A DNA stretch of 64,000 nucleotides from Escherichia phage vB_EcoS-26175I: sequence record NC_133255.1; one strand, 5' to 3'. Below, one piece after another: positions 13,333-58,086 of the stretch. Every line of letters begins with the position of its first letter. Position 1 is the stretch's first letter. The notes beneath the pieces were generated by a model. It saw only the letters and a list, made by a program, of their open reading frames with translations. It made no database searches and was not told where the DNA came from. The translations under genes were made by a program, and so were the position numbers.

Positions 13333-13339
13333 TAAAATT

Positions 13340-13832: not shown

Positions 13833-13843
13833 TTTATGTAATA

Positions 13844-14152: not shown

Positions 14153-14154
14153 AT

Positions 14155-14229: not shown

Positions 14230-14235
14230 AAATAT

Positions 14236-14312: not shown

Positions 14313-14320
14313 GCAGAAAT

Positions 14321-14397
14321 TGGCGTCCTGTGCGGGGATCGAACCCGCAAATCCTACCTTGAAAGGGTAGTGACTTTACCAGTTTGTCTAACAGGAC
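14321..14397 (-). tRNA. tRNA-Glu (anticodon TTC)
   Basis: perfect acceptor gtcctgt/acaggac, T-arm gcggg-gatcgaa-cccgc, anticodon stem ctacc/ggtag; loop ctTTCaa. Confidence 0.75.
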
Positions 14398-14404
14398 TTA
14401 AATT

Positions 14405-14486
14405 TGGTGGGGGATGGAGGACTCGAACCTCCGCGTGGTATACCCGGTCTACAGCCAGGCGCCGTCGCCACTGAGCCAATCCCCCC
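14405..14486 (-). tRNA. tRNA-Tyr (anticodon GTA)
   Basis: 79-nt body, perfect acceptor gggggat/atccccc, T-arm ggagg-actcgaa-cctcc; loop ctGTAga. Confidence 0.65.
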
Positions 14487-14676
14487 CTATTTGAATGAAA
14501 AGTAAGTCGGTTAAACTCAAGGTGGAATATTTCAGGATTTCCTGACTTTACCCCTAAAAGTCAACTCGCTTAATTACTTCTCATTCAGATATGTTTCCAA
14601 ATTAGATAACTATTATATCAAGTTTTATGGCACTGAGCAAGTCAAATTTTAAAGAACTTGCTCAGTGCTGTATTAG

Positions 14677-14952
14677 TTAGTCGAACTTAGGAGTGACAGT
14701 TAAGGAGAACGGAAGTTCAAAAACTTCTTCACCCTCATCACTAACAGTGATTACACGACCTTTAAGTTCAGACATTGAAATATCAATATCAGCTTTTGCA
14801 TCTGGAGCCATGCCAGCTTCAACACATTTAGCTTTAATTTCCGGCAGAAGTTCTACATCATAGAAATAAAGCCATTCAATCTCACCTTCCCAGCCTTCCC
14901 AGGATTTACAGATTGCACTTTCAATACCAGTTGTTATAACACGATTTTGCAT
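14677..14952 (-). CDS. hypothetical protein
   Basis: 91 aa ORF; promoter 14983-15012 upstream. Confidence 0.35.
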   Translation of the reverse strand: MQNRVITTGIESAICKSWEGWEGEIEWLYFYDVELLPEIKAKCVEAGMAPDAKADIDISMSELKGRVITVSDEGEEVFELPFSLTVTPKFD

Positions 14953-14982
14953 TCGTTAACTCCTTCATCAATTTATATAACT

Positions 14983-15012
14983 ATTATACCAGAAATTTAA
15001 AGCAAAAGGCAA
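14983..15012 (-). promoter_or_regulatory. sigma70-type early promoter
   Basis: conserved element upstream of 14677-14952. Confidence 0.5.
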
Positions 15013-15042
15013 GTACATTTTTAAAAATTCTGTTTGGAGGAG

Positions 15043-15249
15043 CTAAACTCCAGATTCTTCAGCCAGATCAAGCCCAACCAATGTGATTGCCATAATAGCC
15101 GCGCCATGTTCTTTCTCTCCTAGCTCTTTGGCTTGAGTGAGAATATTTAGGAACTGCTTGTGGAAATCTTCCACTTCTTCTGTCATGCCTGCTTCAGAAA
15201 TAATACCTTTCAGCATAAAGCGCTGTGCAGTAATTTCAGGATTAGCCAT
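15043..15249 (-). CDS. hypothetical protein
   Basis: 68 aa ORF. Confidence 0.3.
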   Translation of the reverse strand: MANPEITAQRFMLKGIISEAGMTEEVEDFHKQFLNILTQAKELGEKEHGAAIMAITLVGLDLAEESGV

Positions 15250-15400
15250 TTATTATCTCCAGTTATTTAGAATGTAAGCCAAACTTAGGATCATAGCGAT
15301 CATAAGTCGTACCATTAGTTGAAGTCTTGATGCTATGAAAACGACAGTACATAAATTTACGTAGTGCTTTCTTAATAGCTTTCATTTTATTTCCTTAATT

Positions 15401-15478
15401 TGGTAGGGGTGGTGGGATTCGAACCCACAAAACCTGAATTTTAAGTCCAGTACCTATGCCAATTCGATTACACCCCCA
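15401..15478 (-). tRNA. tRNA-Leu (anticodon TAA), short variable loop
   Basis: T-arm gtggg-attcgaa-cccac; loop ctTAAaa; type-I length is unusual for Leu. Confidence 0.5.
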
Positions 15479-15486
15479 TGTAATCT

Positions 15487-15834
15487 TTAGAGTTCGTAAC
15501 CCTGAATATATCGAGCAAAACCAGTAATCTCGAACTGAATTGCCCATGCTACTTCCATATGCTCAATCTTACTAAAATGAGCGTCAGACTGTTCTAGGAA
15601 ATAACGAGAGATTATAGGGAACTCAATGTCAAAATCTTCCTTATCCATACCATAGAAGAAGTTTCCAGAAATATTACGAACTTCACGAAAGAAATCCTCA
15701 ATCTGAAAATCCATCAGAGGATAAGTATATTCCTCTTTGCTATCATCCGTTTGGAAGAAGCGGAAATGCACAAGGCAAGAGCCAATCAGATTTACTGCTG
15801 GAGTAGTGTAAATATCCATGTTAACCTCGATCAA
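15487..15834 (-). CDS. hypothetical protein
   Basis: 115 aa ORF. Confidence 0.35.
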   Translation of the reverse strand: MIEVNMDIYTTPAVNLIGSCLVHFRFFQTDDSKEEYTYPLMDFQIEDFFREVRNISGNFFYGMDKEDFDIEFPIISRYFLEQSDAHFSKIEHMEVAWAIQFEITGFARYIQGYEL

Positions 15835-16006
15835 TATCTAGAGAAATTCCAAATTCTGGATTAATACCAGAACCATTACATGCTGCGCATTCCCACTCTT
15901 CAAAACGCATATCGCCAGGTTCAGCATCATTAATAGTACCTGTTCCATGGCAGTGAGTACACATGCACTCTTCTAGTTCTTGTTTAAGCTCTTGAAACTT
16001 AGACAT
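15821..16006 (-). CDS. small Cys-rich protein (two CxxC pairs)
   Basis: 61 aa; CTHCHGTG...CAACNGSG. Confidence 0.3.
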   Translation of the reverse strand: MSKFQELKQELEECMCTHCHGTGTINDAEPGDMRFEEWECAACNGSGINPEFGISLDIDRG

Positions 16007-16023
16007 ATAGTCTCCTAGTTAAT

Positions 16024-16102
16024 TGGTGGCTCCCGGAGGATTCGAACCTACCTACCTTTCGCTTATGAGGCGACGGCTCATACCAAATGAGCTTGAGAAC
16101 CA
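16024..16102 (-). tRNA. tRNA-Met (anticodon CAT)
   Basis: T-arm with attcgaa loop; D-arm gctc/gagc; loop ctCATaa. Confidence 0.55.
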
Positions 16103-16106
16103 AATT

Positions 16107-16196
16107 TGGAGGAAGAAGTGGGAATCGAACCCACAAGGCTATGTTTCAAACCGACAGATTAGCAATCTGCTGCAATACCGTTATGCTATTCTTCCT
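16107..16196 (-). tRNA. tRNA-Ser (anticodon GCT), long variable arm
   Basis: 87-nt body, perfect acceptor ggaagaa/ttcttcc, T-arm gtggg-aatcgaa-cccac; loop ttGCTaa. Confidence 0.7.
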
Positions 16197-16705
16197 TAAT
16201 TATTTCGGGCATATTCCCCATGAAGTTTCTCTCTCAGTTGAATTAGAGCTTCATTTGCTGCTTCAGGAGTACTGTGCAGCCCTGCGGAGTATGACTTACC
16301 TTTAAACATTATTCTATCCTGCCACTGACCAGATGCTTTGTGGTAGGATACTCCCTTAAATCCGCTAGTATTCCTAGAAGATTTACTAGCATTATGAGTA
16401 TTAGTGGTACTATCCGCTGCTCTTAAATTTAAAGGATGTATGTTTAACTTATTGCAGTCTTTATGATCAATCATTTCCGGCCTATACCCATAATATAGTA
16501 TAAATACTATGATATGAGCTAAGTAATCTTGGTGATCAACGTTAACTCTGATATACCCAGAGCTTTTGTGCAAAGATCCCGCAGGTTTATTGGCAAACTT
16601 AGTATTAAATATCTTCTCCTCTCTGGAGTTTCCGGAGAGCGGATTCCACACCAGTACACCATCTTCTAAACGGAATCTATAAAGTATAGACTCATAGTCT
16701 AGCAT
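16196..16705 (-). CDS. free-standing HNH homing endonuclease with AP2-like DNA-binding region
   Basis: 169 aa; IDHKDCNKLNIHPLNLRAA (HNH) followed by SGFKGVSYHKASGQWQ. Confidence 0.55.
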   Translation of the reverse strand: MLDYESILYRFRLEDGVLVWNPLSGNSREEKIFNTKFANKPAGSLHKSSGYIRVNVDHQDYLAHIIVFILYYGYRPEMIDHKDCNKLNIHPLNLRAADSTTNTHNASKSSRNTSGFKGVSYHKASGQWQDRIMFKGKSYSAGLHSTPEAANEALIQLREKLHGEYARNN

Positions 16706-16738
16706 AAATAGTTCCTAATCTTACAAATTTATGAATAT

Positions 16739-16767
16739 ATTATACAGAAAATTTCGGCATTAAGCAA
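16739..16767 (-). promoter_or_regulatory. sigma70-type early promoter
   Basis: attata 16739-16744, aagcaa 16762-16767. Confidence 0.55.
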
Positions 16768-16775
16768 GTGAAATT

Positions 16776-17072
16776 TTACTGAACATTGCACTGATATACC
16801 TGTTTGATACGTGTCACTGACTTCTTAGTTGGGTTGATAGAAGAACCCTGCCACCAACGTGATTCTGAGCTGAGAACAGCACCAGGAACAGCTTGTTCTT
16901 TTGGCAGAACAATATCAAAACACTGTTCACCCATATTATCTTTAATGTGCGACCAAATGTCTAGAGTAAATCGTTCTAGCTTATTACAAACTTGAACTTG
17001 ACAAAGTTCCTGTTGTGGAGCAGCAAATACAGAAGTAGATACTAGAGTCAATGCAAGTACAATGCGTTTCAT
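16776..17072 (-). CDS. secreted small protein (signal peptide)
   Basis: MKRIVLALTLVSTSVFAAPQ signal peptide; promoter 17103-17131. Confidence 0.35.
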   Translation of the reverse strand: MKRIVLALTLVSTSVFAAPQQELCQVQVCNKLERFTLDIWSHIKDNMGEQCFDIVLPKEQAVPGAVLSSESRWWQGSSINPTKKSVTRIKQVYQCNVQ

Positions 17073-17102
17073 ATTTGATTCCTCTCTCAAATTTATAAAT
17101 AT

Positions 17103-17131
17103 ATTATACAGAAATTTTCTATATTAAGCAA
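17103..17131 (-). promoter_or_regulatory. sigma70-type early promoter
   Basis: attata 17103-17108, aagcaa 17126-17131. Confidence 0.55.
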
Positions 17132-17139
17132 GTGAAAAT

Positions 17140-17170
17140 TTCTGTATAATAGCCCTCGCTTAGAGGGCTA
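17140..17170 (-). terminator. hairpin downstream of pnuC
   Basis: stem agccctc / gagggct, loop gctta. Confidence 0.4.
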
Positions 17171-17178
17171 TAGCTACT

Positions 17179-17871
17179 TTATTTGTTAACGCGTACAAAG
17201 TATCCTTTATAGGCTCCCATAATAGAGTTACCTAAGAATACTAGCCACATTGCTAGGATTGCATAAGATGCACCTGTAGATTGAGTAGTTACAAGCCAAA
17301 TGTACACAGTACCAATGTTAATAGCAATCCAGATCAGCCACTGCTCGGCATACTGCTTAACCATAAGCCACATAGCGATCACACTACCTACCGCAGTAAA
17401 TGCATCCAACATTGGGAATGGATCAGCCGTAGTAGCTAAGAAACTACCATACCCTAACGTGGCTACTGCTAGAATCCCTAGAGTCAGCAGAGCTTGGACT
17501 TTAGTCAGAATCTTAGTTGGAACATCTGGCAGATTACTTGGCTTATTTTTATGCCATAAGTACATTCCATAAAACTGCATAGGAACGTAGTATAGCAGGT
17601 TTAGTGCAGCGTTACCATAAAGATCTGCGTTTAAAGCTGTAATACCATAGGTAAGAACACCAACTAAGCCCCAAATATAGTTAGAAACACGTCCTTTAGC
17701 AACCAAAATAACACAAACTACGTTGGTTATCGCAGTAGCCCAATCTAGAGCTGTACCATTATAGTTTGCTAAACTAATAAAGGCGACTGCCATAAACAGC
17801 CACAGATATTCCAAAGGTTTCCAGTTTTTAAAGTCATTTACAAGATAGTTAGTCATATTAAAACTCTCCAA
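17179..17871 (-). CDS. pnuC: nicotinamide riboside transporter PnuC-like membrane protein
   Basis: 230 aa polytopic membrane protein, Trp-rich TM helices, immediately downstream of the NadR-like gene. Confidence 0.6.
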   Translation of the reverse strand: MESFNMTNYLVNDFKNWKPLEYLWLFMAVAFISLANYNGTALDWATAITNVVCVILVAKGRVSNYIWGLVGVLTYGITALNADLYGNAALNLLYYVPMQFYGMYLWHKNKPSNLPDVPTKILTKVQALLTLGILAVATLGYGSFLATTADPFPMLDAFTAVGSVIAMWLMVKQYAEQWLIWIAINIGTVYIWLVTTQSTGASYAILAMWLVFLGNSIMGAYKGYFVRVNK

Positions 17872-18913
17872 CGTTAAAGTGATGAATCAGCCAGTCTACT
17901 GCGTTTACTGCTTCGTCCATACGAACTTTGTAGTCCGGGGAGTCGATGTAAACAGTACGTCCTTCAGGGAACTGATTTGGAAATTCTTTCTTCATCTGCT
18001 CGAACAGTTCAGAAGTAATTGAACGATCGGAGTTAATACGTAAACCATCATCTACCCACTTGACAGTAGGCGCTAGAACAATTACTAAATCGTAATGTTC
18101 TTCTTTTGCAATTGCTGTAACCACAGGATTCTTACGATGTTCATAAAGTCTGTGGTAGAACTCAGTAATAAAAGCATTTGTATCCACAAACATGATCTTA
18201 TTTGCAGTACGTTCTGCTTCAAACTCTAGCTCTTTGTGTCTGAACGCAATTTTACTATAATCTTCGCTGGTAAGCAGATTTTCGTTACCAACTAGATCAA
18301 CTTCACAATACGTTCGACCATATTCTTCTACCCACGAAGTGTTGTATAGCTTCGCAAGGTATTTTGTTAAAGTAGTCTTTCCCGAGCTTTCAGTCCCAAT
18401 GAGTACAACCTTACGCACGTAATCTTTACGAACTACGCTAGGAAGAAACTCCCAATACTTCATAAGATCATTACGAATCATTGTAGCTGAGATTGGAACA
18501 CGAGTCCGATCAGAATCTACAATATAATGACCAAACTTCGGCAGATATTTCTTATATTCTGCATCATAGTCTAGTTCGCTAGAGAAAATGGTGATCTCAG
18601 GCAAATGTCCATAATTTTCATTAAGGATTCTAGCATATTCCGGCCAACCATTCGGATATTCAGGAATATCATCTTCAATAATGTACTCTACCGAAACGTG
18701 CTCAATATCCGCGTAAGTTTGTTCTAACCAACGAAGACGATTCTTTAACTGTAATACTTCCTGATCACGTGTGTTCTGCTTATCCAGCCAACGATTATCA
18801 TGACTAACTACAATAATAACTCGTTCACACATAGTTGCTGCTGTGTTTATTAGGTTAATATGACCACGCGTTAATGGTGCGAACTTACCAATTACTAGAC
18901 CAGTCTTAATCAT
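17858..18913 (-). CDS. nadR: NadR-like bifunctional NMN adenylyltransferase / ribosylnicotinamide kinase (no HTH domain)
   Basis: N-terminal nucleotidyltransferase motif GKFAPLTRGH; C-terminal Walker A GTESSGKTT; Met start at 18913 with SD and promoter 18944-18972. Confidence 0.75.
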   Translation of the reverse strand: MIKTGLVIGKFAPLTRGHINLINTAATMCERVIIVVSHDNRWLDKQNTRDQEVLQLKNRLRWLEQTYADIEHVSVEYIIEDDIPEYPNGWPEYARILNENYGHLPEITIFSSELDYDAEYKKYLPKFGHYIVDSDRTRVPISATMIRNDLMKYWEFLPSVVRKDYVRKVVLIGTESSGKTTLTKYLAKLYNTSWVEEYGRTYCEVDLVGNENLLTSEDYSKIAFRHKELEFEAERTANKIMFVDTNAFITEFYHRLYEHRKNPVVTAIAKEEHYDLVIVLAPTVKWVDDGLRINSDRSITSELFEQMKKEFPNQFPEGRTVYIDSPDYKVRMDEAVNAVDWLIHHFNVGEF

Positions 18914-18943
18914 GTTTGATTCCTCTCTCAAATTTATAAATAT

Positions 18944-18972
18944 ATTATACAGAGAATTTAGCATTCAAGCAA
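18944..18972 (-). promoter_or_regulatory. sigma70-type early promoter driving nadR-pnuC
   Basis: attata 18944-18949, aagcaa 18967-18972. Confidence 0.55.
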
Positions 18973-19110
18973 TCGAATTTTTAAACTTTTTAGTGGAAAA
19001 ATCTCAAGGCATTTAGTGGTAGCACGTTGTTGCTGCAATAATAGTATATGATTCTAAAGAATTAAATACTAAAGACCTTAGTTGAATAACTTATGGGATT
19101 TTCTTTTACC

Positions 19111-19152
19111 TTAAATACAGAAAAGCCCGCGCTCTCGGAGGAAACGCGGGCT
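19111..19152 (-). terminator. rho-independent terminator downstream of SPFH gene
   Basis: stem agcccgcg / cgcgggct followed on minus strand by tttctgtattt. Confidence 0.55.
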
Positions 19153-19176
19153 TGTTTCGAAGATTACGTGGAACTA

Positions 19177-20121
19177 TTACTTATTACGCATATCCATAAT
19201 CATTTGACCATCGTAGCCAGTACCGACAACAGTCTGCGGTACACCACCTTGGTATTTTTCAGCACGAAGCATTTCAACTTCCAGCTGCTTCCAACGAATC
19301 ATTTCAGGAGTAATGGTACGTTGCAGAGCGGCGTTAGCTTCAGCTTCTTTCTTAGCTGCGTACAGTTTAGCATCTGCGTCACGTTCGTTAGCTACTGCCA
19401 TGTTTTCACGAGCGGAACGATCTGCCTCAGCTTGCTTAACTTTCTGCTGTGCTTCTTGTTCAACACGAGCCAGTTCAGCTTTTGCAGCGTTAACTTGTTC
19501 TTCACGAACTTTAGTGTTCTGTACCTGTTCCATGATTACCGGTGGCAGAGTAATATCCTGAAGGAATACTTGCTTAACCGTGTAACCATAAGGACGCGCG
19601 TACTCTTCTACCTCTTGCTGAATAGCAGTTTGCAGTTGAGCCTGAATCTTAGCGTCGAACAGATCTTGTGCTTTTGGTACGGACTTACCAAACTCACGAA
19701 TCGTAGACAGCATCTTCTCTTCAACGTATTTGTTCAGAGCCTGATCCTGAGTACCTGCGTTAACACGGTTCATAGGAGCTTTAGCACCATCAAACTGCAA
19801 CATAACGGTAATGTCAACAGTAGACTTAAACTTATCCTGGCTAGGAACCTGAAGTTTATCCAGTTTCATGGAAATATCTTTCGTACTAAAAGTATCAAAA
19901 GAAGCAAATGGGTTAACAATATGGAAGCCTGGCAATACAGGATTAGGGCTAACTTTACCCAGGAAGGTTTGAGTCTTAACAGTACCATCCTGAACAACTG
20001 TATAGGAATTGAGAGCCAGAATAAGAGCACCAAGACCAACAGCAGCACCAACACCCCAACGTTTAATAGTACGAATTACTTTTTGCTCAGAAGTCAGTTC
20101 TTTAGTGTTTTTAGTAAACAT
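19177..20121 (-). CDS. SPFH/band-7 (prohibitin/HflC-like) membrane protein
   Basis: N-terminal TM, SPFH-like core, C-terminal Ala/Glu/Gln-rich coiled coil; terminator hairpin 19111-19152 downstream. Confidence 0.65.
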   Translation of the reverse strand: MFTKNTKELTSEQKVIRTIKRWGVGAAVGLGALILALNSYTVVQDGTVKTQTFLGKVSPNPVLPGFHIVNPFASFDTFSTKDISMKLDKLQVPSQDKFKSTVDITVMLQFDGAKAPMNRVNAGTQDQALNKYVEEKMLSTIREFGKSVPKAQDLFDAKIQAQLQTAIQQEVEEYARPYGYTVKQVFLQDITLPPVIMEQVQNTKVREEQVNAAKAELARVEQEAQQKVKQAEADRSARENMAVANERDADAKLYAAKKEAEANAALQRTITPEMIRWKQLEVEMLRAEKYQGGVPQTVVGTGYDGQMIMDMRNK

Positions 20122-20132
20122 ATATTTCCTTA

Positions 20133-20333
20133 TTATTTAGAAGAGTTATCTACTACAGTTACTTTAGTTGCAGAAATAAATAGGCTAGCATCCACAGCAA
20201 ATTCAGGAGCTTTGATATCTCCATTATGAAATATGACTATACCGGAGACTACTTCAAATGCTAGTGCTGTAACATCGGTGGTCTTTAGTTGTGAATGTTC
20301 ACCTACTACTTTTACTATATATCGTGTTTTCAC
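20133..20333 (-). CDS. hypothetical protein
   Basis: 66 aa ORF. Confidence 0.3.
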   Translation of the reverse strand: MKTRYIVKVVGEHSQLKTTDVTALAFEVVSGIVIFHNGDIKAPEFAVDASLFISATKVTVVDNSSK

Positions 20334-20359
20334 TTTATTTTCCTAGCAGTTAATAAAAT

Positions 20360-20434
20360 TGGCCGAGGTGACAGGATTCGAACCTGCATAAAGGAATTTA
20401 GAAGACTCCTGCCTATCCCTTAGACTACACCCCG
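20360..20434 (-). tRNA. tRNA-Arg (anticodon TCT)
   Basis: T-arm acagg-attcgaa-cctgc; anticodon stem ggaat/actcc (one GU); loop ctTCTaa. Confidence 0.65.
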
Positions 20435-20442
20435 AGAATAAA

Positions 20443-20952
20443 TTACTTAATGATTTCGTTCAGTTTGGTTTGGCTTTCTAGCGCTGCTTTAGCTGATTTC
20501 TCAGCATCCCTAGCAGCACGTCGTGCTTTAGAGTCAATCAATAGCTTGTCATACTTGATATTAACGAACTCTTTAATATCATGGTAGAAACGTTGATGTG
20601 CCATGTATTCTTGTGCATCTGCATCGTAACAGCGCATATAGAAGTAATCACTAGGCTCTCCACGAAGTGTACGCTCTAGAATCTGAGGTCGATAACGACG
20701 TAATGTATCTTTCGCCATTTTTATTTCATCAGTTTCTTCACCAAGCTGAACTAGGTGATAAAGACGAGTATTGTCGATGTAATCCAAAGCTACGCTAAAG
20801 TATTCACCTTCTCGAAGATTGTATCCTGTAATCTCACTCATTTTCTCACGAGCTTGATCAAGTGTCAGGCGTTCTGGAAAATGTGCTATATGCAGAATAC
20901 GAGGGCAACACATTTCTTGATGATCAAAGATACAAGTTGTTCCTAGATTCAT
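20443..20952 (-). CDS. hypothetical protein
   Basis: 169 aa ORF downstream of the 1-kb ORF-poor region. Confidence 0.4.
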   Translation of the reverse strand: MNLGTTCIFDHQEMCCPRILHIAHFPERLTLDQAREKMSEITGYNLREGEYFSVALDYIDNTRLYHLVQLGEETDEIKMAKDTLRRYRPQILERTLRGEPSDYFYMRCYDADAQEYMAHQRFYHDIKEFVNIKYDKLLIDSKARRAARDAEKSAKAALESQTKLNEIIK

Positions 20953-21921
20953 ATTGATTCCTTTTGTTAGGTATTTTTAAGAACTCTCGTAAAAGTCCTT
21001 AAAGATACCCGGCGGTAGGTAGGGTCAGCCCCCTCAGATTAAGCTCTGCAGCCCTTCCGTCAGACAATATCTTCCAGTTTAAGTCAGGGTGACTTTGTGG
21101 TTATTCAGCTAAGGCTGATCGGCAGCTCTTAGGTCATGACTCCTCGTCGCTCTTTACTCACCGGCTAGGAAGTTATCTCGAGTTCTTCCTAGCTCTTTAG
21201 TCGTGCCATTAAGGTGCCTTCTAAGAGACTTACCTTTTCCCACTTTCGATTTGGGCATGTATCAGGTAAGGGTAGCCAAATCAGCATCCTAGTCCTACGG
21301 GGTCTCATCAAATTACATACCACCGCTTTTCGATATGTAATGCCCATGTCTATACGGGAGAAGAAAATGGGCATCTTTCTCTTCGTCTGATAGCTTGAAA
21401 AACGACTCCTCATGGAGGAAAAACTTCACTATCTAGGCTAAAGCCTAAAGTTCTTCTTTAATCCGGCAAAGCAAAACCGTAGTATATACTTTTCAGGAAT
21501 GGTTGGTTAGTCTGGAACCAACTACCGCGTGGTTTTGGCAGTGCACAGCTGCCTGCGATTGCTTCGCCATTAGAAGCACCAGTTATCCAACTCTTTCCGA
21601 CCGTGGGACTCGAACCCACATCTTCAGGCGGTGAAGCCCTAATAATACCTATTATACTAGGACGGCAGTGTTGTTACATAAGTGGTTTCGGCACCCCACT
21701 AACATAAACTAGAGAAGAGTTTACGAGATTTCGGGACAGCTCCCGAGTTTTCCGCAGATTTTCAGTTCCCTATCAATAGCAATAAGCGTTAGCTCGTAGC
21801 CTCTCTCAGAGTACTTACTAGTCTCCAACTCACCGACTCTATTCAGTGGAATAGCTATCCTAGTAGGAGTCACTAAACTCACTCAGCGTAATCGGCTCGC
21901 TGTTCTCTAATTTATGAATCT

Positions 21922-23845: not shown

Positions 23846-24484
23846 TTACTCTACTTCGATAAAAGTAGAGGCGTTGGACTCAGACAGAACAAAGTCAACG
23901 TTGGTTGCAAAGTCCTGGTATTCTTCGTCGTGTTGCTTGATCAGCTTTTCCAGCTCCAGTGGATCGATCAGGAACGGAGTGTTCTTGAGTTCCAGCAGGT
24001 TAAGCTGCATCTTAACTTCATCCTCGGAAGTCTTCTTGTCGCGGGTAGCCATGGTATCCTGCAAACGCTCATACTTAGCATCAAACTGAGCTTTCTGAGT
24101 GTTAAACTTAACAGTAGCAGCATGGAACTGCTTACGCATGTTAGCCAGCAACTGAGCTTTGAGTTCCATAGAACGCTTAGCTTCGATTGCTTCCGCAACA
24201 GTCATAGAGCGCGAACCGATCTCTACAACAGTTTCAGCATTGCTCTTGATCAGCGCAGCTTTCAGACGATCACGCTGGGACATCATATCCAGCAGAGACT
24301 GGAAATCAGTCTTAATACGGGTAGACAGAGCATCTACTTCGATTGCAGCGCCAACGACAACTTGGTTCTTGTCCTTACCTTCACCAACAGCGATCAAAAG
24401 CTGTTGTTCAGTAGCTTTACGGATTTTAGCTTCCAGAGACTTGATAGTTGCCAGAGCACGAGTTTTAGAGATACGAGTAGTCAT
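23846..24484 (-). CDS. hypothetical coiled-coil protein
   Basis: 212 aa ORF. Confidence 0.4.
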   Translation of the reverse strand: MTTRISKTRALATIKSLEAKIRKATEQQLLIAVGEGKDKNQVVVGAAIEVDALSTRIKTDFQSLLDMMSQRDRLKAALIKSNAETVVEIGSRSMTVAEAIEAKRSMELKAQLLANMRKQFHAATVKFNTQKAQFDAKYERLQDTMATRDKKTSEDEVKMQLNLLELKNTPFLIDPLELEKLIKQHDEEYQDFATNVDFVLSESNASTFIEVE

Positions 24485-45545: not shown

Positions 45546-45956
45546 ATGACTACTCCAACTCAGTGGACTGATGAACTGTTCGAAAAAATGTCTTCCGACT
45601 ACGTTGCTCGTATGGAGCAATTCCCAGAAGATGAGCGTCCGGGCGTTAGCATGGAAATTGTTAGCGAAATTGCTCAGGAAAATGGTGTAACTCCGAATGG
45701 TTTCCGTATGAAGCTGACCAAAGCAGGTCTGTATATCAAGAAAGCTGCTGGCTCTACTTCTAAATCAAGCGCATCTACTGGAGAAAAAGCTTCTGGGGGT
45801 TCTCGTACTTCCAAAGCTCAGGCTCACTCCGATCTACGCTCTGCATTCTCTGATGCTGGCTTAGCACCGGACTTCCTGGACGACGCAATCATCGACAAGC
45901 TGACCGGTAAAGCAGCTGCTCATCTGGCAGAAGCTATCCGAGCTATCACTAAGTAA
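45546..45956 (+). CDS. hypothetical protein
   Basis: 136 aa; promoter 45459-45487. Confidence 0.35.
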   Translation: MTTPTQWTDELFEKMSSDYVARMEQFPEDERPGVSMEIVSEIAQENGVTPNGFRMKLTKAGLYIKKAAGSTSKSSASTGEKASGGSRTSKAQAHSDLRSAFSDAGLAPDFLDDAIIDKLTGKAAAHLAEAIRAITK

Positions 45957-46339: not shown

Positions 46340-46648
46340 ATGAGCGATCAAGTAAATCAAAACTATGAAGGACACGTTGACGACCAGTCCATCATGCTTT
46401 GGGAGAAGGAGGGGGAACAAGTAAGATTAACCGTATCTGAATTTCGTGGGAATCTATACATGGGAATTCGTTACTGGCTCCAAGATATTACTGGAGAGTG
46501 GTTTCCAACGAAATCCGGCTTCTCTTTTCCTTATACCCTAGAAACTACATCACAGCTATTCTACGCTTTTACGCAAATCCTCAGTGAATCAGAGGTCTTG
46601 CATGAAGTACAGAAACGAGCTGAAGAACTCAAAGCCAAGAATGCCTAG
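46340..46648 (+). CDS. hypothetical protein
   Basis: 102 aa; hairpin plus T-run 46633-46665. Confidence 0.35.
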   Translation: MSDQVNQNYEGHVDDQSIMLWEKEGEQVRLTVSEFRGNLYMGIRYWLQDITGEWFPTKSGFSFPYTLETTSQLFYAFTQILSESEVLHEVQKRAEELKAKNA

Positions 46649-47005: not shown

Positions 47006-47200
47006 ATGACAATAACACTTCCAAAGATTCAAGCAAAACTTAATTTGCTCTCCATGGCAAGAAGCAACTATCAGGATAGTATCGGCACCCCAAACCAGAA
47101 AGCATACAAAGATGCATGGTTGAAAGAAGCTGCTGATTTAGCTGGTATGGCTGCTCAGTATAATAAAGAACTCAAAATGGAAATCGCAGACGATGAATAA
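47006..47200 (+). CDS. hypothetical protein
   Basis: 64 aa ORF. Confidence 0.3.
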   Translation: MTITLPKIQAKLNLLSMARSNYQDSIGTPNQKAYKDAWLKEAADLAGMAAQYNKELKMEIADDE

Positions 47201-48164
47201 TGTAAAAGACTTTATCAAACGTTGTCAAGAAGCGTACTACCAGGGAATGAGTCTTATTTCCGATGAAGAATATGATCGTCTAATTAAAAGATTCCCTCTA
47301 GAGGAAGAAATCGGACCGAAAGGTGATATCCCTCATTTGTATCGTATGTATTCTTTGCAGAAAGTCTATTATGGTCGTGGTGATAAATCTCCGTTCAATC
47401 CATTAGGTCAGGTTGAAACTGATAAGTTAGATGGTTGTGCGATTTCCCTATTATATATTAATGGTGAGTTTGTTCAAGCGTTAACTCGTGGTAACGGTAT
47501 TCTAGGGAATGATGTAACGCATAATGTTAAAATGCTGAACATCCCCAAAACTATTTCCCAAAAAGTACCAACTCAAATCACTGGTGAAGTTCTCATTACT
47601 AAAGAAGTAGAGAACAAACGTAACTATGCTTCTGGTGCTATTAACCTGAAAGATAGTGATGATTTCATGCAACGTATTGGTGAAGGTGGTTTAATCTTCG
47701 TTGCATATGGTATCCAGTGTTCAGCGGAAACAGTCGGTATTACAGAAGCCTATTTAAAAGATATGCTTTGGCTAGAGAATGAGAACTTCTTGACAGTTGT
47801 TAATGTTCGTTCCTTCTTTAAATGGATTCCGACAGATGGTAAAGTTGTTCGCATTAACGACAATAATAAATTCTTCCGTGAAGGTTGGACTAATAAATTT
47901 CCTCGTGGTGCATTTGCTATTAAAGAGGATGAAGAAGGCGAAATTACCACACTTGTTAAAGTTGAATGGCAAGTAGGGGCTTCTGGTAAGGTAACTCCAG
48001 TTGGTTATTTCGAACCGGTGATTATTGATGATGCCACAATCGTTAAAGCAACTCTTAATAACGTTGATTATATTAACGCTCTCGATTTAGAGATCGGTTG
48101 CCAGATTCGAGTGATTCGTGCTGGTGGTGTAATCCCTTGTATAGTAGAGCGAGTATACGACTAA
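47193..48164 (+). CDS. NAD-dependent DNA ligase, N-terminal (adenylation/OB) part
   Basis: N-terminus EEYDRLIKRF like LigA Ia domain; adenylation lysine motif KLDG. Confidence 0.75.
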   Translation: MNNVKDFIKRCQEAYYQGMSLISDEEYDRLIKRFPLEEEIGPKGDIPHLYRMYSLQKVYYGRGDKSPFNPLGQVETDKLDGCAISLLYINGEFVQALTRGNGILGNDVTHNVKMLNIPKTISQKVPTQITGEVLITKEVENKRNYASGAINLKDSDDFMQRIGEGGLIFVAYGIQCSAETVGITEAYLKDMLWLENENFLTVVNVRSFFKWIPTDGKVVRINDNNKFFREGWTNKFPRGAFAIKEDEEGEITTLVKVEWQVGASGKVTPVGYFEPVIIDDATIVKATLNNVDYINALDLEIGCQIRVIRAGGVIPCIVERVYD

Positions 48165-48307
48165 TTCGTAACCCTTTGCTACCCGTTTACCATGTCGGAA
48201 TTATAAAGTGGTTATTGACATTTTCGCCGCTTAGGTATATACTATTATCATTCAGTTGAGGGATAGAAAGTTATGGCGAGGGTAAGCAAAGTTAGTTAAA
48301 ATTGTAG

Positions 48308-48336
48308 TTGCTAAATGCTTAAATACTTGCTATAAT
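48308..48336 (+). promoter_or_regulatory. sigma70 promoter between the two ligase ORFs
   Basis: ttgcta 48308-48313, tataat 48331-48336. Confidence 0.55.
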
Positions 48337-48363
48337 ATTTATATAAATTGATAAGGAAGAAAT

Positions 48364-49146
48364 TTGATGAAAATCGAAATTCCAACACAATGTCCCTCTT
48401 GTGGTTCTAAGCTAGATCTTGTCAACGGGCAATTATTCTGTAGGAATAAGTCCAACTGTCCAGCGCAATCAAGTAAGTTAATCGAGAACTTCTGCACAAA
48501 AATGAAGTTAAAGGGCTTTGGCCCGAAAACTATTGAGAAGCTGGAGCTGACTAAGATCTCAGAACTGTTTTACCTGACCGAAGAAGATTTGGTCGGAGCT
48601 GTGGGTAGCAAGGTTGCCACTAAGTTGATTAGCGAGTTAAATACTAAGGTTCGCGGAGACATTGACTTTGGTTCAGTTCTCGGTTCTTTAGGAATTCCTC
48701 TTATTGGAGAGGTTGCAGCAAAGAAACTGTCCCAAAATTGCACTAGCTTCCACGATGTGAAGGCTGACGGCAAGGCTGGAGAAAATTACAAAACCTGGCT
48801 AAATTCCCCACAAGGCAAGGATGTTATTGAATTACCGTGGAAATTCTCAACTGGTATTCGAGGCATTAAAGCTGATATCATCATTACGGATGATTTAGTT
48901 GCCCAACCAAATGGAATCACGGTCTGTATTACCGGATCTTTGCAAGATTTTGCAAATCGAACGGATGCAACAAACTATTTAGAAAGTCTAGGATATACGG
49001 TTAAGAAGTCCGTTACCAAAGATGTCAAATACCTAATCTGTGAGGATGAATCAAAACGTTCTTCCTCATCTTATAAGAAAGCCGAAACGAATGGGATAGA
49101 AATCCTGTCGATTAAAGAACTATTGGAGAAAAATAATAATGTCTAA
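48364..49146 (+). CDS. NAD-dependent DNA ligase, C-terminal (Zn-finger/HhH/BRCT) part
   Basis: CPSCGSKL...CRNKSNCPAQ zinc finger then HhH-like and BRCT-like regions; own promoter 48308-48336. Confidence 0.75.
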   Translation: MMKIEIPTQCPSCGSKLDLVNGQLFCRNKSNCPAQSSKLIENFCTKMKLKGFGPKTIEKLELTKISELFYLTEEDLVGAVGSKVATKLISELNTKVRGDIDFGSVLGSLGIPLIGEVAAKKLSQNCTSFHDVKADGKAGENYKTWLNSPQGKDVIELPWKFSTGIRGIKADIIITDDLVAQPNGITVCITGSLQDFANRTDATNYLESLGYTVKKSVTKDVKYLICEDESKRSSSSYKKAETNGIEILSIKELLEKNNNV

Positions 49147-49906
49147 ACTGAACTGGAACGTAGAAGGTGTAACCGAGTCTCTGAAAGCAAAAGCCACTGC
49201 TCTGGGTGTTGCTGTAATCTCTCAAGAACAAGTAGCTGCTATCGCTGCTGAACTGGCTACCGAGACTGGTAAAGACGTTACCGCCCGCTCTGTTGGCTCT
49301 AAGCTGCGTAAAGAAGGTTTTGAAGTACAGAAAGCTAACGAAGTACAGAAATCCCCGTGGACTCCTGAGCAGGAAGCTGAACTGGTTGATTTCCTGAACG
49401 CTCATGCTGGTCAGTATACTTACGCTGAAATCGCTGCTGCTGTAGCTGGTGGTCAGTTTGGTGCTAAGCAGGTACAGGGAAAGATCCTGAGTCTGGAAAT
49501 GACCGCTTCTGTTAAGCCAACTGAAAAAGCTGCTGCTGTTCGTTCCTTCACTCCGGACGAAGAAACTGATTTCGTTAATCAGGTTGTTGCTGGTGCTACT
49601 ATTGAAGCTATCGCTGCTCACTTCGGTCGCAATATTAAGCAGATCCGTGGTAAAGCTCTGAGCCTGCTTCGTGAAGGTCGTATCGCTGCTATGCCGGTAC
49701 AGGAAACTTCAAGTGCTAAAACTCGTGAAGATCTGTTAGAAGGTCTGGATCTGGCTAACATGACTGTTGCTGAGATCGCTGAAAAAACTGGTAAGTCTGA
49801 GCGCGGTGTTAAATCTATGCTGTCTCGTCGTGGTCTGGTTGCTAAGGACTATGATGGTGCCGCTAAGCGTGCTAAACTGGATGCAAAAGCTGCGGCTGCT
49901 GAATAA
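49139..49906 (+). CDS. Ala-rich protein with three HTH-like repeats
   Basis: repeats TYAEIAAAVAG / TIEAIAAHFGRNIKQIRGKALSL / TVAEIAEKTGKSERGVKSMLSRRGL; GCT/CTG-rich codon usage unlike neighbours. Confidence 0.45.
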   Translation: MSKLNWNVEGVTESLKAKATALGVAVISQEQVAAIAAELATETGKDVTARSVGSKLRKEGFEVQKANEVQKSPWTPEQEAELVDFLNAHAGQYTYAEIAAAVAGGQFGAKQVQGKILSLEMTASVKPTEKAAAVRSFTPDEETDFVNQVVAGATIEAIAAHFGRNIKQIRGKALSLLREGRIAAMPVQETSSAKTREDLLEGLDLANMTVAEIAEKTGKSERGVKSMLSRRGLVAKDYDGAAKRAKLDAKAAAAE

Positions 49907-49915: not shown

Positions 49916-49948
49916 TTAAACCTAAGGGGAGGGGGCTATGCTCCTTCC
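49916..49948 (+). terminator. rho-independent terminator
   Basis: aaggggagg...ccttcccct followed by ttttt. Confidence 0.6.
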
Positions 49949-49988
49949 CCTTTTTGCATTTAGAAGGCACGAAAGCGTGCAAAGGAGA

Positions 49989-51461
49989 ATGACCTTGTTT
50001 AACGTGCAAGCTGTAGTGTTGAAGATGCTTCTCGCTTCTGAACAGAAGCAAATAGCATTGGAAACATTCTCAAAACTGCATAAAGATCATTTTAATGACG
50101 CTTTCTCCTCAATTTACCAAGCCGTCCAGAATTATTATAAGAAATATAACGCAATGCCGTCCATTGACGCACTGATGCTTGAGGCCAATAGGAACGCCCG
50201 CCTTTCTCAAGCTCTTGTCGTCTTAGCTAACACTCAAATTCCAGAAGTGAGCATGGAACAGGCACTTGAAGTCCTAGAAGCCGAATATACACAGGATCTA
50301 TTCCTGAAACTTCTAGAAACAGACGTGCTTCAAGATTTAACAATGCTGGATCAGGGAGAAATTCTCAACCGAGTTGCCTCCCTTCACTTAAAATTAGAAG
50401 AGAAAGTAACGAATACTGGAAAGGTATTCAACGCAGACACAATGCGTATTTTCCAGAGAGAAGAAGATACCAAACTGAACTTGATCGCTCTTGGTATTTG
50501 TAATGAGTTCGACGCTCAAATTGGTTTAGCTCGCACAGAAACGTTACTGCTTGGTGGTTGGCGTGGTACTGGTAAATCCATTATCTGTTCAAACATACAG
50601 GTTCAGCAATATTTGAATGGAGACATTGCTCCATATTTCTCAATTGAGATGAAAGAGCACGAAGTGTTTAGACGTAATCTGGCTATGTTAGCTGGAGTAT
50701 CTGCATTAGCAATGCGTAATAACACTCTTGAAGGTGCTGCTCTGTTGAGATTAGCCAGAACTAGGGCTAGAATGTTTAATGGTGGTGAAGAGCTTTTCGA
50801 TAACTTCGTTAAGCAGTACACTATGGCTAAAATGAGTGACTTCTATGATATGGAAAGTAAACTCATTGAAGGCTATGAGCTTCACACTCCTATGATCATC
50901 GTTTACGACCCTGAACTGTCTATTACGACGGTTGACGTAGAATTAAATAAACTAGTTGCTAAGTATGGTGATAAGGTTACTGTAGCTCTTCTAGACTACA
51001 TTAACCAAACAAGACTTCCAGATTCAAAGACCATTGACATGTATGACTGGAAAGAACAGATGGTTGTTAGTTCATCTTTCAAATCTATCTGCCAGAAACA
51101 TAACGTGGCTGGTGTTGCCCCTTACCAGATTGACCAAGATGGTAGAACGCGTATGTCTAAAGGGATTCTTGATTCCGCAGATATGGCTGCTAATCTTAAT
51201 GCTGCAAAAGCTGATAACGGTCAAGGTGCTATTATGTTTGACTTCGTTAAGACTCGTTCCTCTGATAGTGTGAAGTTTATGCCTAAGATGAACTGGGAAA
51301 CTCTGCGAATGGATAATACTACCAACCTAGCAATGGAAGATATTGCGCAAATGGAAGCTGAGTTCGTTATTCCTATTGAAAAGGATAAACCAGCTCAACC
51401 TAAACGTGCTAAGAAAGACAAAGCTGAAAATTCAACAGGTGAACAGGCCAGCGATATATGA
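49989..51461 (+). CDS. DnaB-like replicative helicase
   Basis: Walker A GGWRGTGKS; start at ATG 49989 after SD AAAGGAGA. Confidence 0.6.
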   Translation: MTLFNVQAVVLKMLLASEQKQIALETFSKLHKDHFNDAFSSIYQAVQNYYKKYNAMPSIDALMLEANRNARLSQALVVLANTQIPEVSMEQALEVLEAEYTQDLFLKLLETDVLQDLTMLDQGEILNRVASLHLKLEEKVTNTGKVFNADTMRIFQREEDTKLNLIALGICNEFDAQIGLARTETLLLGGWRGTGKSIICSNIQVQQYLNGDIAPYFSIEMKEHEVFRRNLAMLAGVSALAMRNNTLEGAALLRLARTRARMFNGGEELFDNFVKQYTMAKMSDFYDMESKLIEGYELHTPMIIVYDPELSITTVDVELNKLVAKYGDKVTVALLDYINQTRLPDSKTIDMYDWKEQMVVSSSFKSICQKHNVAGVAPYQIDQDGRTRMSKGILDSADMAANLNAAKADNGQGAIMFDFVKTRSSDSVKFMPKMNWETLRMDNTTNLAMEDIAQMEAEFVIPIEKDKPAQPKRAKKDKAENSTGEQASDI

Positions 51462-56957: not shown

Positions 56958-57320
56958 ATGAAATTCTTTGATTACGAGAGAATTTACCTCTTAGCTAGAG
57001 GAAACTCCGACCTGATTGTCAAGCTATTTAATAGAATGCTTGCAGAGCCTGATGCTCACCAACTACTGGTCGGTTCTTCATTCATCTTGAATGAATCAAC
57101 TATTGTTGATAACCCTTACAAATTGTCTAATAGACAACTGGCAGAATATCTAGGAATTCTAAGTCTACGAAATTATGCCGAATATAAGTTTACAAACGAT
57201 CCGAGTTTGGACATGCAATATGTTCCCGTATGGATACCACGTTCTGTAATCGACACTAACCCACTAATTGCAATCAATAAATCGAAGATAATCTTTAAAG
57301 AGGAAATAAAATATGTCTAA
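56958..57320 (+). CDS. hypothetical protein
   Basis: 120 aa; tandem promoters 56801-56829 and 56901-56930 upstream. Confidence 0.35.
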   Translation: MKFFDYERIYLLARGNSDLIVKLFNRMLAEPDAHQLLVGSSFILNESTIVDNPYKLSNRQLAEYLGILSLRNYAEYKFTNDPSLDMQYVPVWIPRSVIDTNPLIAINKSKIIFKEEIKYV

Positions 57321-58086
57321 GTCTTGGGGCGAAACTACTGGCGGTTCTAACGATAAAATCGACTTCCTGAAATTCAACAACGGTGTAACTCGTGTTCGTA
57401 TCGTTTCTGGTGTTCTTCCACGTTATGTATACTGGCTGACTAACAAAGATGGTAATGCAGCTCCGTTTGAGTGCCTGCGTTTCAACCGTACTAAAGAGAG
57501 CTTCGTTCGCGGTAAAGCTGACCCGATTCACGAAATGGGCTTCTTTGAAAAAGAGCTGGATAAAGATGGTAATCGTGTTCCGCTGAAACCGAAGAAAAAT
57601 TACATAGCTTTCGTTATCGACCGTTCCGATAACAAACTGAAAGTTATGGAAGTTAAAGCTACTATCCTGAAAGGCATCCAGTCTATCATGAAGCAGCTTG
57701 AACTGGCAGATCCATTCGATATCGATATTTCTATCGAGAAGAAAGGTAAAGGCTTCGATACTGAGTACGATGTACAGCAGATCGCAGCAATGCAGTTCCA
57801 GATGAAACTGAAAGATCCTACCAGTGCTGAGTCTAAACTGCACGCCGCAGATGCCGATATTCTCGGTGAAGCTATGTGTGATGATACTGGTGAGTTCATC
57901 AAGTTTGAAAAAGTTCCTTCTCTGGAAGAAACCTACCCGGTTCCGTCCTACGAAGAGCAGAAAGAAGCTATTCTCGCCTTCATGGAAGGTCGTGAGAAGC
58001 AAGACGGCGGTGATGCTAAGTCTGGTGGAGATGCTGGTTCTCAGAAAGGCATCGACGCTGAAGCTGCTAGCGATCTGGACGACTAA
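57313..58086 (+). CDS. single-stranded DNA-binding protein-like (acidic C-terminal tail)
   Basis: 257 aa, acidic tail ...DAEAASDLDD; terminator 58094-58120. Confidence 0.45.
   Translation: MSKSWGETTGGSNDKIDFLKFNNGVTRVRIVSGVLPRYVYWLTNKDGNAAPFECLRFNRTKESFVRGKADPIHEMGFFEKELDKDGNRVPLKPKKNYIAFVIDRSDNKLKVMEVKATILKGIQSIMKQLELADPFDIDISIEKKGKGFDTEYDVQQIAAMQFQMKLKDPTSAESKLHAADADILGEAMCDDTGEFIKFEKVPSLEETYPVPSYEEQKEAILAFMEGREKQDGGDAKSGGDAGSQKGIDAEAASDLDD

What the first reader, a model, noticed from the sequence alone, without database searches (positions are those of the whole stretch)
49139..49906. Ala-rich protein with three HTH-like repeats and atypical codon usage
The 255-aa protein has three repeats resembling sigma-factor region-4-type helix-turn-helix units. 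Its coding sequence uses GCT/CTG/CGT-rich codons typical of highly expressed host genes, in contrast to the AT-rich codons of neighbouring phage genes. It could be a highly expressed transcription regulator or a recently acquired gene.
Basis: seen in the sequence. Interest (0 to 1): 0.45.

Follow-up and report, generated by a model that had tools for sequence, protein, structure and literature searches.

The report
T5 D5 abundant DNA-binding protein
This gene is the well-known D5 early protein of T5-like phages, a very highly expressed DNA-binding protein built of four (not three) helix-turn-helix units; its host-like codons come from selection for heavy expression, not from recent gene acquisition.

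Summary
The ORF at 49139..49906 (+) is real. Its protein is 98.8% identical to gene D5 of phage T5, and the identical GenBank genome already annotates it as 'putative transcription factor D5'. The window is a T5-like Epseptimavirus.

The codon observation holds. CAI is 0.705, the highest of 126 ORFs in the whole phage (mean 0.30), and z = 13.6 against synonymous re-sampling. The bias is not unique: the major capsid protein, the D11 SSB, D3 and one unknown early protein form the same high-CAI class.

GC3 equals the genome mean. The gene is syntenic in about 900 Demerecviridae genomes and absent from 5,426 E. coli genomes. In a Vibrio phage the bias uses a different Leu codon. 'Recently acquired' is therefore rejected.

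The same-position gene has the highest TPM of the phage genes listed in published RNA-seq of a T5-like phage.

Profile comparison and a confident AlphaFold model show four three-helix HTH units plus a C-terminal helix, not three. They resemble GcrA-DBD/Myb-type domains more than a sigma factor.

Best explanation: an abundant, stoichiometric dsDNA-binding protein needed for replication and the early-to-late switch. This is ordinary and already known, with minor new detail.

The parts
48215..48243 (+). Promoter-like site TTGACA-17-TATACT upstream of ligB/D5; its position corresponds to T5 early promoter P-K28b
   Evidence: Consensus scan gives 11/12 matches; sequence read. T5 RefSeq annotates P-K28b and P-K28a in the same ligA-ligB spacer. 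The correspondence is inferred from offsets.
48308..48336 (+). Promoter-like site TTGCTA-17-(TG)TATAAT; its position corresponds to T5 early promoter P-K28a
   Evidence: Consensus scan gives 10/12 matches plus an extended -10 TG; sequence read; T5 annotation.
48367..49146 (+). NAD-dependent DNA ligase subunit B (ligB). It is the first gene of the two-gene unit, and its last 8 nt overlap the D5 start.
   Evidence: ORF list; annotations of Sw2 and T5.
49125..49128 (+). GGAG Shine-Dalgarno of D5, 10 nt before the ATG and inside the end of ligB
   Evidence: Sequence read directly; an RBS is annotated at the same place in phage Sw2.
49139..49906 (+). D5 coding sequence, 255 aa plus stop
   Evidence: PHROG 323 'transcriptional regulator, D5-like', E = 1.5e-71. 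98.8% aa identity to T5 D5 / T5.118. Annotated 'putative transcription factor D5' in 100%-identical MK907268.
49154..49324 (+). HTH unit 1 (aa 6-62): helices 11-22, 29-43, 49-58; recognition helix with invariant R50, K55, L56, R57
   Evidence: AlphaFold2 model, pLDDT 94.6; conservation in A1; hhalign to units 2, 3 and 4 with E = 1.7e-4 to 3.1e-4.
49352..49498 (+). HTH unit 2 (aa 72-120): helices 76-88, 95-101, 109-118; motif W74...KQVQGKxLS
   Evidence: hhalign of unit 2 against unit 3 gives probability 95.8%, E = 6.5e-9. Weak Myb_DNA-binding hit at aa 71-100, below threshold.
49541..49678 (+). HTH unit 3 (aa 135-180): helices 139-150, 155-162, 166-178; motif RGKALSL
   Evidence: Pfam HTH_23 hit at aa 151-184, E = 1.2e-4, below threshold.
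49727..49846 (+). HTH unit 4 (aa 197-236): helices 210-217 and 221-231, then a short beta hairpin; motif ERGVKSMLSRRG
   Evidence: Pfam Sigma70_r4_2 at aa 204-230, 29.1 bits against cut-off 25.7.
49856..49900 (+). Conserved C-terminal helix (aa 240-254, AAKRAKLDAK...). Its role is not shown; a protein-protein or cooperative contact is an inference.
   Evidence: AlphaFold2 helix 240-254; G240 invariant and K246 nearly invariant.
49924..49958 (+). Intrinsic-terminator-like hairpin (13-pair stem, 8 G-C pairs) plus T tract, starting 18 nt after the D5 stop. It bounds the ligB-D5 unit.
   Evidence: Terminator scan; sequence.

Best explanation
The gene is the ortholog of bacteriophage T5 gene D5. 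Its product is an abundant early protein that binds double-stranded DNA through four tandem three-helix HTH domains.

Expression (partly shown, partly inferred). D5 appears to be transcribed with ligB from two strong sigma-70 early promoters. Its start overlaps the end of ligB, and a terminator hairpin follows it. Because the protein is needed in stoichiometric rather than catalytic amounts, selection has driven its codons to the host's translationally optimal set. The same has happened in the phage's other bulk proteins: capsid, SSB and D3.

Function (inferred from the architecture, from the RefSeq note for T5.118 and from my recollection of 1979-83 biochemistry). Each HTH recognition helix carries a conserved basic motif, so one monomer could contact several successive sites on the duplex, and many monomers could coat phage DNA. 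This coating would be required for phage DNA replication, would help shut off early promoters, and would permit late transcription by host sigma-70 RNA polymerase.

D5 is not a sigma factor and was not recently acquired.
For: Identity. PHROG 323, E = 1.5e-71. 98.8% aa identity to T5 D5. The 3.2-kb region is 100% identical to MK907268, which annotates D5. The order ligB-D5-helicase-primase-pol is kept in T5 and in Vibrio phage Chester. The RefSeq note for T5.118 reads 'DNA-binding protein; required for DNA replication and late transcription; also is involved in shutoff of expression of ...'.

High expression. CAI is first of 126 ORFs, z = 13.6 against synonymous re-sampling. Only 8.3% of conserved codons differ synonymously from T5, against 13-34% in 13 neighbouring genes. 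In Bas33 RNA-seq the 768-nt gene at the D5 position has TPM 22,868 and 16,641, the highest of the phage genes listed, against 5,136 and 3,009 for the capsid gene (10.64898/2026.01.13.699316 Table S1). D5 was among the most abundant proteins in phiR2-01 particle preparations (PMC8624392).

DNA binding in recent work. T5 D5 is reported as a 26-kDa species (its expected monomer size) that engages retron-Kva2 in vitro (mass photometry). Its HTH is predicted by AlphaFold3 to bind the retron's msDNA stem-loop, and it is toxic when expressed alone (10.64898/2026.07.11.737809).

Not acquired. GC3 is 0.340 against a mean of 0.338. 901 phage records, all T5-like by size and name, carry it. The Chester ortholog is also biased but uses CTA for Leu (16/23) rather than CTG. 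There is no blastn match in 5,426 E. coli genomes. Only 7 hits were found in 185,579 species genomes, all on metagenome-assembled (MAG) contigs; the one whose ORFs were listed (L012) has a T5-like gene order.
Against: No experiment on this phage was available. DNA binding, cooperativity and abundance are carried over from T5 and its relatives.

I could not read the primary biochemical papers (McCorquodale 1979 was requested and is not held; the others were not located). Cooperative, sequence-independent binding therefore rests on my recollection and on database notes.

The protein has no net positive charge (34 K+R against 34 D+E), unlike classical histone-like proteins.

The identification of bas33_0040 as D5 rests on gene length and order, not on sequence. 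The RNA-seq table lacks genes 0083-0122 and records one time point (20 min).

The qualitative result is backed by reference-free tests (the G-test and the synonymous-change comparison).
Confidence: 0.85

Rival explanations
1. It is a sigma-like or sequence-specific transcription factor that redirects host RNA polymerase to late promoters, acting in regulatory amounts.
For: Sigma70_r4_2 hit above Pfam's cut-off at aa 204-230. Many records label it 'transcription factor'. D5 mutants fail in late transcription (RefSeq note). The mechanism of the T5 early-to-late switch is stated to be unknown (PMC7472727).
Against: No sigma region 2 hit at E <= 10. The only region 3 hit is a sub-threshold Sigma70_r3 match at aa 209-229 (20.9 bits against cut-off 25.3), on the same HTH. 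The match covers 27 residues of one of four similar HTH units. All T5 gene classes are transcribed with host sigma-70 (PMC7472727). The highest phage TPM listed and the top CAI fit a stoichiometric protein, not a regulator. No whole-protein structural match to sigma factors was found.
Confidence: 0.1
2. It was recently acquired horizontally from the host or another source, and so retains foreign codon usage.
For: G+C is 48% against about 40% for the window. Codon usage resembles that of highly expressed E. coli genes.
Against: GC3 equals the genome mean. The gene is present and syntenic across Demerecviridae of Vibrio, Aeromonas, Klebsiella and Proteus. Its divergence from the Chester ortholog (55% identity) matches that of pol and ligB. 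The bias uses a different Leu codon in the Vibrio phage. Four other phage genes share the bias. No homolog was found in 5,426 E. coli genomes.
Confidence: 0.02
3. It is a DNA-associated protein packaged with the genome in the virion, and that is its main role.
For: D5 was among the 'major virion-associated proteins' by spectral count in Yersinia phage phiR2-01 (PMC8624392).
Against: The same paper notes that D5 is the one such protein not found in T5 virions. The gene lies in the early replication module behind early-type promoters. An abundant DNA-bound protein could easily co-purify with particles.
Confidence: 0.05

Closest known systems
Bacteriophage T5 gene D5 product (T5.118, YP_006946.1; PHROG 323 'transcriptional regulator, D5-like')
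   Same: Same length (255 aa), with 3 substitutions (98.8% identity). Same position between ligB and the DnaB-like helicase. Two promoter-like sites lie where T5 has P-K28b/a. Same codon bias (CAI 0.695 in T5).
   Different: Nothing material. The host phage is an Epseptimavirus rather than a Tequintavirus, and the neighbouring genes are 86-94% identical in DNA.
GcrA DNA-binding domain (Caulobacter, PDB 5yiu; Pfam PF07750)
Myb/SANT repeat DNA-binding domains (R2R3-Myb, Timeless DBD, CDC5/Cef1)
   Different: The Myb hit is below the Pfam threshold (17.8 against 24.4 bits). The regularly spaced tryptophan triad of Myb repeats is absent; the protein has only two Trp in all.
Sigma-70 region 4 / LuxR-type HTH
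   Same: Unit 4 passes Sigma70_r4_2's gathering score (29.1 against 25.7 bits). TraR, RcsB and sigma chains appear among weak structural and profile hits.
   Different: Only a 27-residue HTH core matches. Sigma region 2 is absent and region 3 gives only a sub-threshold hit on the same HTH, so this is not a sigma factor.
Abundant phage or cellular DNA-coating proteins (e.g. phi29 p6, HU/H-NS-type nucleoid proteins), as functional analogues only
   Same: Early, very highly expressed, stoichiometric dsDNA binder affecting both replication and the transcription switch. This is an inference, plus established knowledge of those systems.
   Different: Unrelated fold. D5 is a roughly 26-kDa four-HTH species (reported at its expected monomer size) with no net positive charge. 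No nucleoprotein structure is known.

Membership tests
T5 D5 protein family (PHROG 323) | Full-length sequence homology to T5 D5 | tested here: met
   PHROG 323 E = 1.5e-71 over aa 1-253; 98.8% identity to T5.118 over 255 aa.
T5 D5 protein family (PHROG 323) | Position in the early replication module, directly after ligB and before the helicase, primase and polymerase genes | tested here: met
   Window ORFs against T5, Sw2, Chester and Bas28 annotations.
T5 D5 protein family (PHROG 323) | Binds double-stranded DNA; required for replication, early shut-off and late transcription | not testable with these tools
   Only the RefSeq note, the HTH fold and the msDNA binding predicted for T5 D5 bear on this.
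T5 D5 protein family (PHROG 323) | Very high early expression | tested here: inconclusive
   The evidence is indirect: top CAI, synonymous-site conservation, and the highest phage TPM listed in the related phage Bas33. There are no data for this phage.
Sigma-70 family | Region 2 (-10 recognition / core binding) together with region 4 | tested here: not met
   The Pfam scan at E <= 10 lists Sigma70_r4_2, Sigma70_r4 and a sub-threshold Sigma70_r3, all on the same HTH at aa 204-230, and no Sigma70_r2.
GcrA family (PF07750) | Match to the GcrA profile; a single N-terminal DBD plus a C-terminal sigma-70-interacting domain | tested here: not met
Myb/SANT domain | Pfam Myb_DNA-binding above threshold; conserved tryptophan triad per repeat | tested here: not met
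   17.8 bits against cut-off 24.4; only W6 and W74 in the whole protein.
Horizontally acquired (alien) gene | Atypical third-position composition, patchy distribution, discordant divergence, and a donor homolog | tested here: not met
   GC3 0.340 against 0.338; 901 syntenic phage records; divergence in line with neighbours; no E. coli match.

The most novel reading that the evidence does not exclude
D5 could be the missing agent of the T5 early-to-late switch. On this reading it is a phage 'chromatin' protein whose four GcrA/Myb-like HTH units let each monomer span several turns of duplex. As D5 accumulates to very high levels, its coating of replicating phage DNA would progressively occlude early promoters (and perhaps the genome's nicks) while leaving late promoters usable by unmodified sigma-70 polymerase. 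The same surface would be what retron-Kva2 has evolved to sense. The four-unit architecture, and its five-unit variant P0122, have not to my knowledge been described.
Probability: 0.3. Interest if true: 0.5.

Novelty: already known. Interest (0 to 1): 0.2.

Why it matters
For the scan, this closes the finding. The unusual codons mark one of a small set of bulk-expressed phage genes, not a foreign insert or a new regulator.

There are modest biological points. First, codon adaptation alone picks out the stoichiometric proteins of a T5-like phage: D5, capsid, SSB, D3 and one unknown 212-aa early protein. Second, the Leu codon that D5 favours differs between the enterobacterial and the Vibrio phage (CTG against CTA).

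Third, D5 is a four-domain HTH array. This bears on two open matters: how T5 switches from early to late transcription (stated as unknown in PMC7472727), and how retron-Kva2 recognises D5 (2026 preprint).

Tried and rejected
1. Phage-tRNA hypothesis: that D5 avoids codons read by the 31 phage tRNAs because it is made early. The fraction of codons cognate to phage anticodons is 0.42 against a mean of 0.47 (sd 0.05), which is not distinctive. Dropped.

2. Sequence link to solved structures. phmmer of the protein and hmmsearch with profiles of units 2 and 3 against PDB sequences gave only generic HTH, designed-repeat or chance hits. GcrA was not retrieved.

3. Whole-protein fold match. Foldseek against the PDB gave nothing below E = 0.1. 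Foldseek against BFVD matched only D5 orthologs with a meaningful TM-score (0.68); other phage multi-HTH proteins had TM <= 0.26.

4. Primary literature. McCorquodale 1979 (PMC353123) is not held. Several full-text searches gave little on D5 biochemistry. The DRT4 paper's trigger is ORF55, not D5.

5. Guessing the Bas33 GenBank accession failed: MZ501077 is Bas10 and MZ501076 is Bas28. Equating bas33_0040 with D5 therefore rests on gene lengths and order.

6. Long multi-stretch hits in the representative search (P0242, P0249, P0256) are generic Myb/HTH_7 repeat proteins, not D5 relatives.

Full report
What is there.

The window is a T5-like phage. The 3.2 kb around the finding is 100% identical to Escherichia phage vB_EcoS-26175II (MK907268, Epseptimavirus) and 99% identical to many Salmonella and Escherichia phages. 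A 27-kb overlap with that record differs at 4 positions.

The ORF at 49139..49906 (+) encodes 255 aa. It matches PHROG 323 'transcriptional regulator, D5-like' at E = 1.5e-71. It differs from T5's own D5 protein (T5.118) at 3 residues.

It lies where D5 lies in T5, directly after the B subunit of the split NAD-dependent ligase and before the DnaB-like helicase, primase and DNA polymerase genes. The ligB stop overlaps the D5 start by 8 nt, and a GGAG sits 10 nt upstream of the ATG.

Two sigma-70 promoter-like sites (48215-48243, 11/12 matches; 48308-48336, 10/12 plus TG) occupy the ligA-ligB spacer, where T5 RefSeq annotates early promoters P-K28b and P-K28a. A 13-pair hairpin with a T tract follows the D5 stop (49924-49958). 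ligB-D5 therefore looks like a short, strongly promoted and terminated unit. The transcription itself is inferred.

Checking the observation: composition and codons.

Ala is 17.6%, the highest of 126 ORFs in the reconstructed genome (mean 7.1%). Codon choice is extreme: GCT 39/45, CTG 17/19, GGT 17/19, CGT 9/12, and all Val as GTT or GTA.

CAI is 0.705 against a mean of 0.30 (sd 0.10) for the other ORFs. This is rank 1 of 73 in the window and of 126 in the genome. Re-encoding the same protein with pooled phage usage gives 0.337 +/- 0.027, and none of 10,000 samples reaches 0.705. A reference-free G-test gives p = 1.5e-15.

The codon observation is therefore confirmed. Two corrections matter.

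First, D5 is not alone. The major capsid protein (0.658), D11 single-strand DNA-binding protein (0.634), a 212-aa early protein (0.609) and D3 DNA-binding protein (0.604) form a distinct class, and the next gene is at 0.48. Apart from the unknown protein, these are the proteins a phage needs in bulk.

Second, the raised G+C (48%) lies in codon positions 1 and 2 (0.66 and 0.45). GC3 is 0.340 against a genome mean of 0.338. The composition signal comes from amino-acid content, not from foreign DNA.

Acquired or selected?

tblastn finds the protein in 901 phage records. Nearly all cover at least 80% of the query, and they come from phages of Vibrio, Salmonella, Escherichia, Klebsiella, Proteus, Aeromonas and Pectobacterium. 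Synteny is kept in Vibrio phage Chester. Identity to the Chester ortholog (55%) is like that of pol (58%) and ligB (55%).

The Chester gene is also strongly biased (GCT 31/39, GGT 17/17, CGT 10/13), but its Leu codon is CTA (16/23) instead of CTG. So the favoured Leu codon differs between the two phages.

Between this phage and T5, only 8.3% of conserved D5 codons differ synonymously, against 13-34% for 13 neighbouring genes. That pattern is expected from selection on synonymous sites.

blastn finds nothing in 5,426 complete E. coli genomes. A pattern scan of 185,579 species genomes finds 7 loci, all on metagenome-assembled (MAG) contigs. The one whose ORFs I listed (L012) has a T5-like gene order. 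Recent acquisition is rejected.

Direct expression evidence from relatives.

A 2026 preprint on daunorubicin and T5-like phage Bas33 provides RNA-seq at 20 min after infection (10.64898/2026.01.13.699316, Table S1). The 768-nt gene bas33_0040 overlaps a 780-nt upstream gene by 8 nt. On one side it is followed by 1467-nt and 891-nt genes, and on the other it is preceded by 972-, 309-, 297- and 411-nt genes. This is the D5 neighbourhood by length and order.

Its TPM is 22,868 and 16,641 in the two replicates, the highest of the phage genes listed. The next values are a 252-nt pre-early gene (16,765 / 15,336), ligB (10,850 / 7,448) and D3 (10,586 / 8,010). The capsid gene is at 5,136 / 3,009.

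I could not confirm the gene's identity by sequence, and the table omits genes 0083-0122. Separately, D5 was among the most abundant proteins in particle preparations of Yersinia phage phiR2-01, although it is not a T5 virion protein (PMC8624392).

Checking the observation: the repeats.

An alignment of 53 homologs was cut into four segments, which were compared as profiles. Unit 2 against unit 3 gives 95.8% probability, E = 6.5e-9. Units 1-2, 1-3, 1-4 and 3-4 give E = 1e-4 to 3e-4. Units 2-4 are weak.

AlphaFold2 on the alignment gives mean pLDDT 94.6. The pTM of 0.58 suggests that the relative domain orientations are not well defined. The model has four three-helix bundles (helices 11-22/29-43/49-58; 76-88/95-101/109-118; 139-150/155-162/166-178; 210-217/221-231 preceded by an extended segment), then a beta hairpin and a C-terminal helix at 240-254.

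Invariant residues cluster in the third helix of each unit: RSVGSKLRK, KQVQGKxLS, RGKALSL and RGxKxxLxRRG. There are thus four units, not three. A metagenomic homolog (P0122, 309 aa) has five, with unit 2 duplicated.

What kind of HTH?

Pfam gives one hit above threshold, Sigma70_r4_2 at aa 204-230 (29.1 against 25.7 bits). Weaker sub-threshold hits to HTH_23, Myb and HTH_33 fall on the other units. There is no sigma region 2 and no GcrA hit.

Sequence profiles of units 2 and 3 do not reach any solved relative. The family itself is small: 543 representatives at E <= 1e-3 among 1.84 billion, of which about 55 are full length. The units belong to the broad tri-helical HTH class. D5 is not a sigma factor.

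How it most likely works.

Shown here:
- orthology to T5 D5;
- a four-HTH architecture;
- a strong signature of selection for efficient translation;
- early-promoter and terminator-like context.

Taken from annotation and recent literature:
- D5 is a DNA-binding protein required for DNA replication and late transcription, and is involved in shut-off of some early genes (RefSeq note; the same sentence from the 1979 abstract is quoted).
- T5 D5 is seen at 26 kDa, its expected monomer size. AlphaFold3 predicts that its HTH binds the msDNA stem-loop of retron-Kva2. It triggers that retron and is toxic when expressed alone.
- All T5 gene classes use host sigma-70 polymerase, and the switch mechanism is unknown (PMC7472727).

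From my own recollection of Rice et al. 1979 and Fujimura & Roop 1983, which I could not retrieve: the protein is made in large amounts, binds duplex DNA cooperatively, and inhibits polymerases on duplex or nicked templates.

Inference: many D5 monomers coat phage DNA, each contacting the duplex through up to four recognition helices. That stoichiometric demand explains the codon optimisation. Coverage modulates which promoters and nicks are accessible, and so links replication with the early-to-late switch.

Comparison and novelty.

This is the known D5 gene, already annotated as such in the identical GenBank record. What this analysis adds is minor: the unit count (four), the GcrA/Myb-like fold similarity, and the ranking of D5 as the most codon-adapted gene of the phage within a five-gene high-CAI class. 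It also adds the different Leu codon in a Vibrio relative and the conservation of synonymous sites.

Interest is low. The most novel reading not excluded is that D5 coating is itself the early-to-late switch.

Noticed in passing
window 23846-24484 (-): A 212-aa ORF in the early/tRNA region has the fourth-highest CAI of the phage (0.609). It has no Pfam hit, and its PHROG label 'tail fiber protein' (E = 6e-81) looks doubtful for an early gene. The same-length gene in Bas33 (bas33_0075, 639 nt) has TPM 8,541 / 6,881 at 20 min. It is probably an abundant early protein of unknown function.
   Followed up: partly
window 45546-45956 (+) and 57313-58086 (+): D3 (DNA-binding protein, CAI 0.604) and D11 (single-strand DNA-binding protein, CAI 0.634) share D5's host-optimal codon usage, as does the major capsid protein, which lies outside the window (0.658). 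Neither D3 nor D11 has a Pfam match.
   Followed up: partly
window 49924-49991 (+): The longest-ORF start of the DnaB-like helicase (ATG 49938, used in the T5 RefSeq annotation) lies in the loop of the terminator hairpin after D5. An in-frame ATG at 49989, preceded by AAGGAG (49982-49987), is the likelier start. Phage Sw2's annotation likewise uses a downstream, RBS-preceded start about 90 nt after the D5 stop.
   Followed up: partly
window 6463-21667 (-): ARAGORN predicts a cluster of 31 tRNA genes. One is called tRNA-SeC with anticodon TCA (21594-21667) and could be a UGA-reading tRNA. Three have anticodon CAT.
   Followed up: no
window 47193-49146 (+): The NAD-dependent DNA ligase is split into two genes, ligA (47193-48164) and ligB (48367-49146). 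The roughly 200-bp spacer between them carries the two strong promoter-like sites. This is a known T5 feature.
   Followed up: no
P0122 (metagenomic homolog, 309 aa): This D5 homolog has five HTH units, with unit 2 tandemly duplicated. Repeat number therefore varies within the family.
   Followed up: partly
window 46340-46648 (+): A 102-aa protein matches PHROG 4053 'transcriptional regulator'. Phage Sw2 annotates its counterpart as PC4-like (transcriptional coactivator p15 fold). This may correspond to the T5 PC4-like ssDNA-binding protein mentioned in PMC10194208 (ORF106).
   Followed up: no
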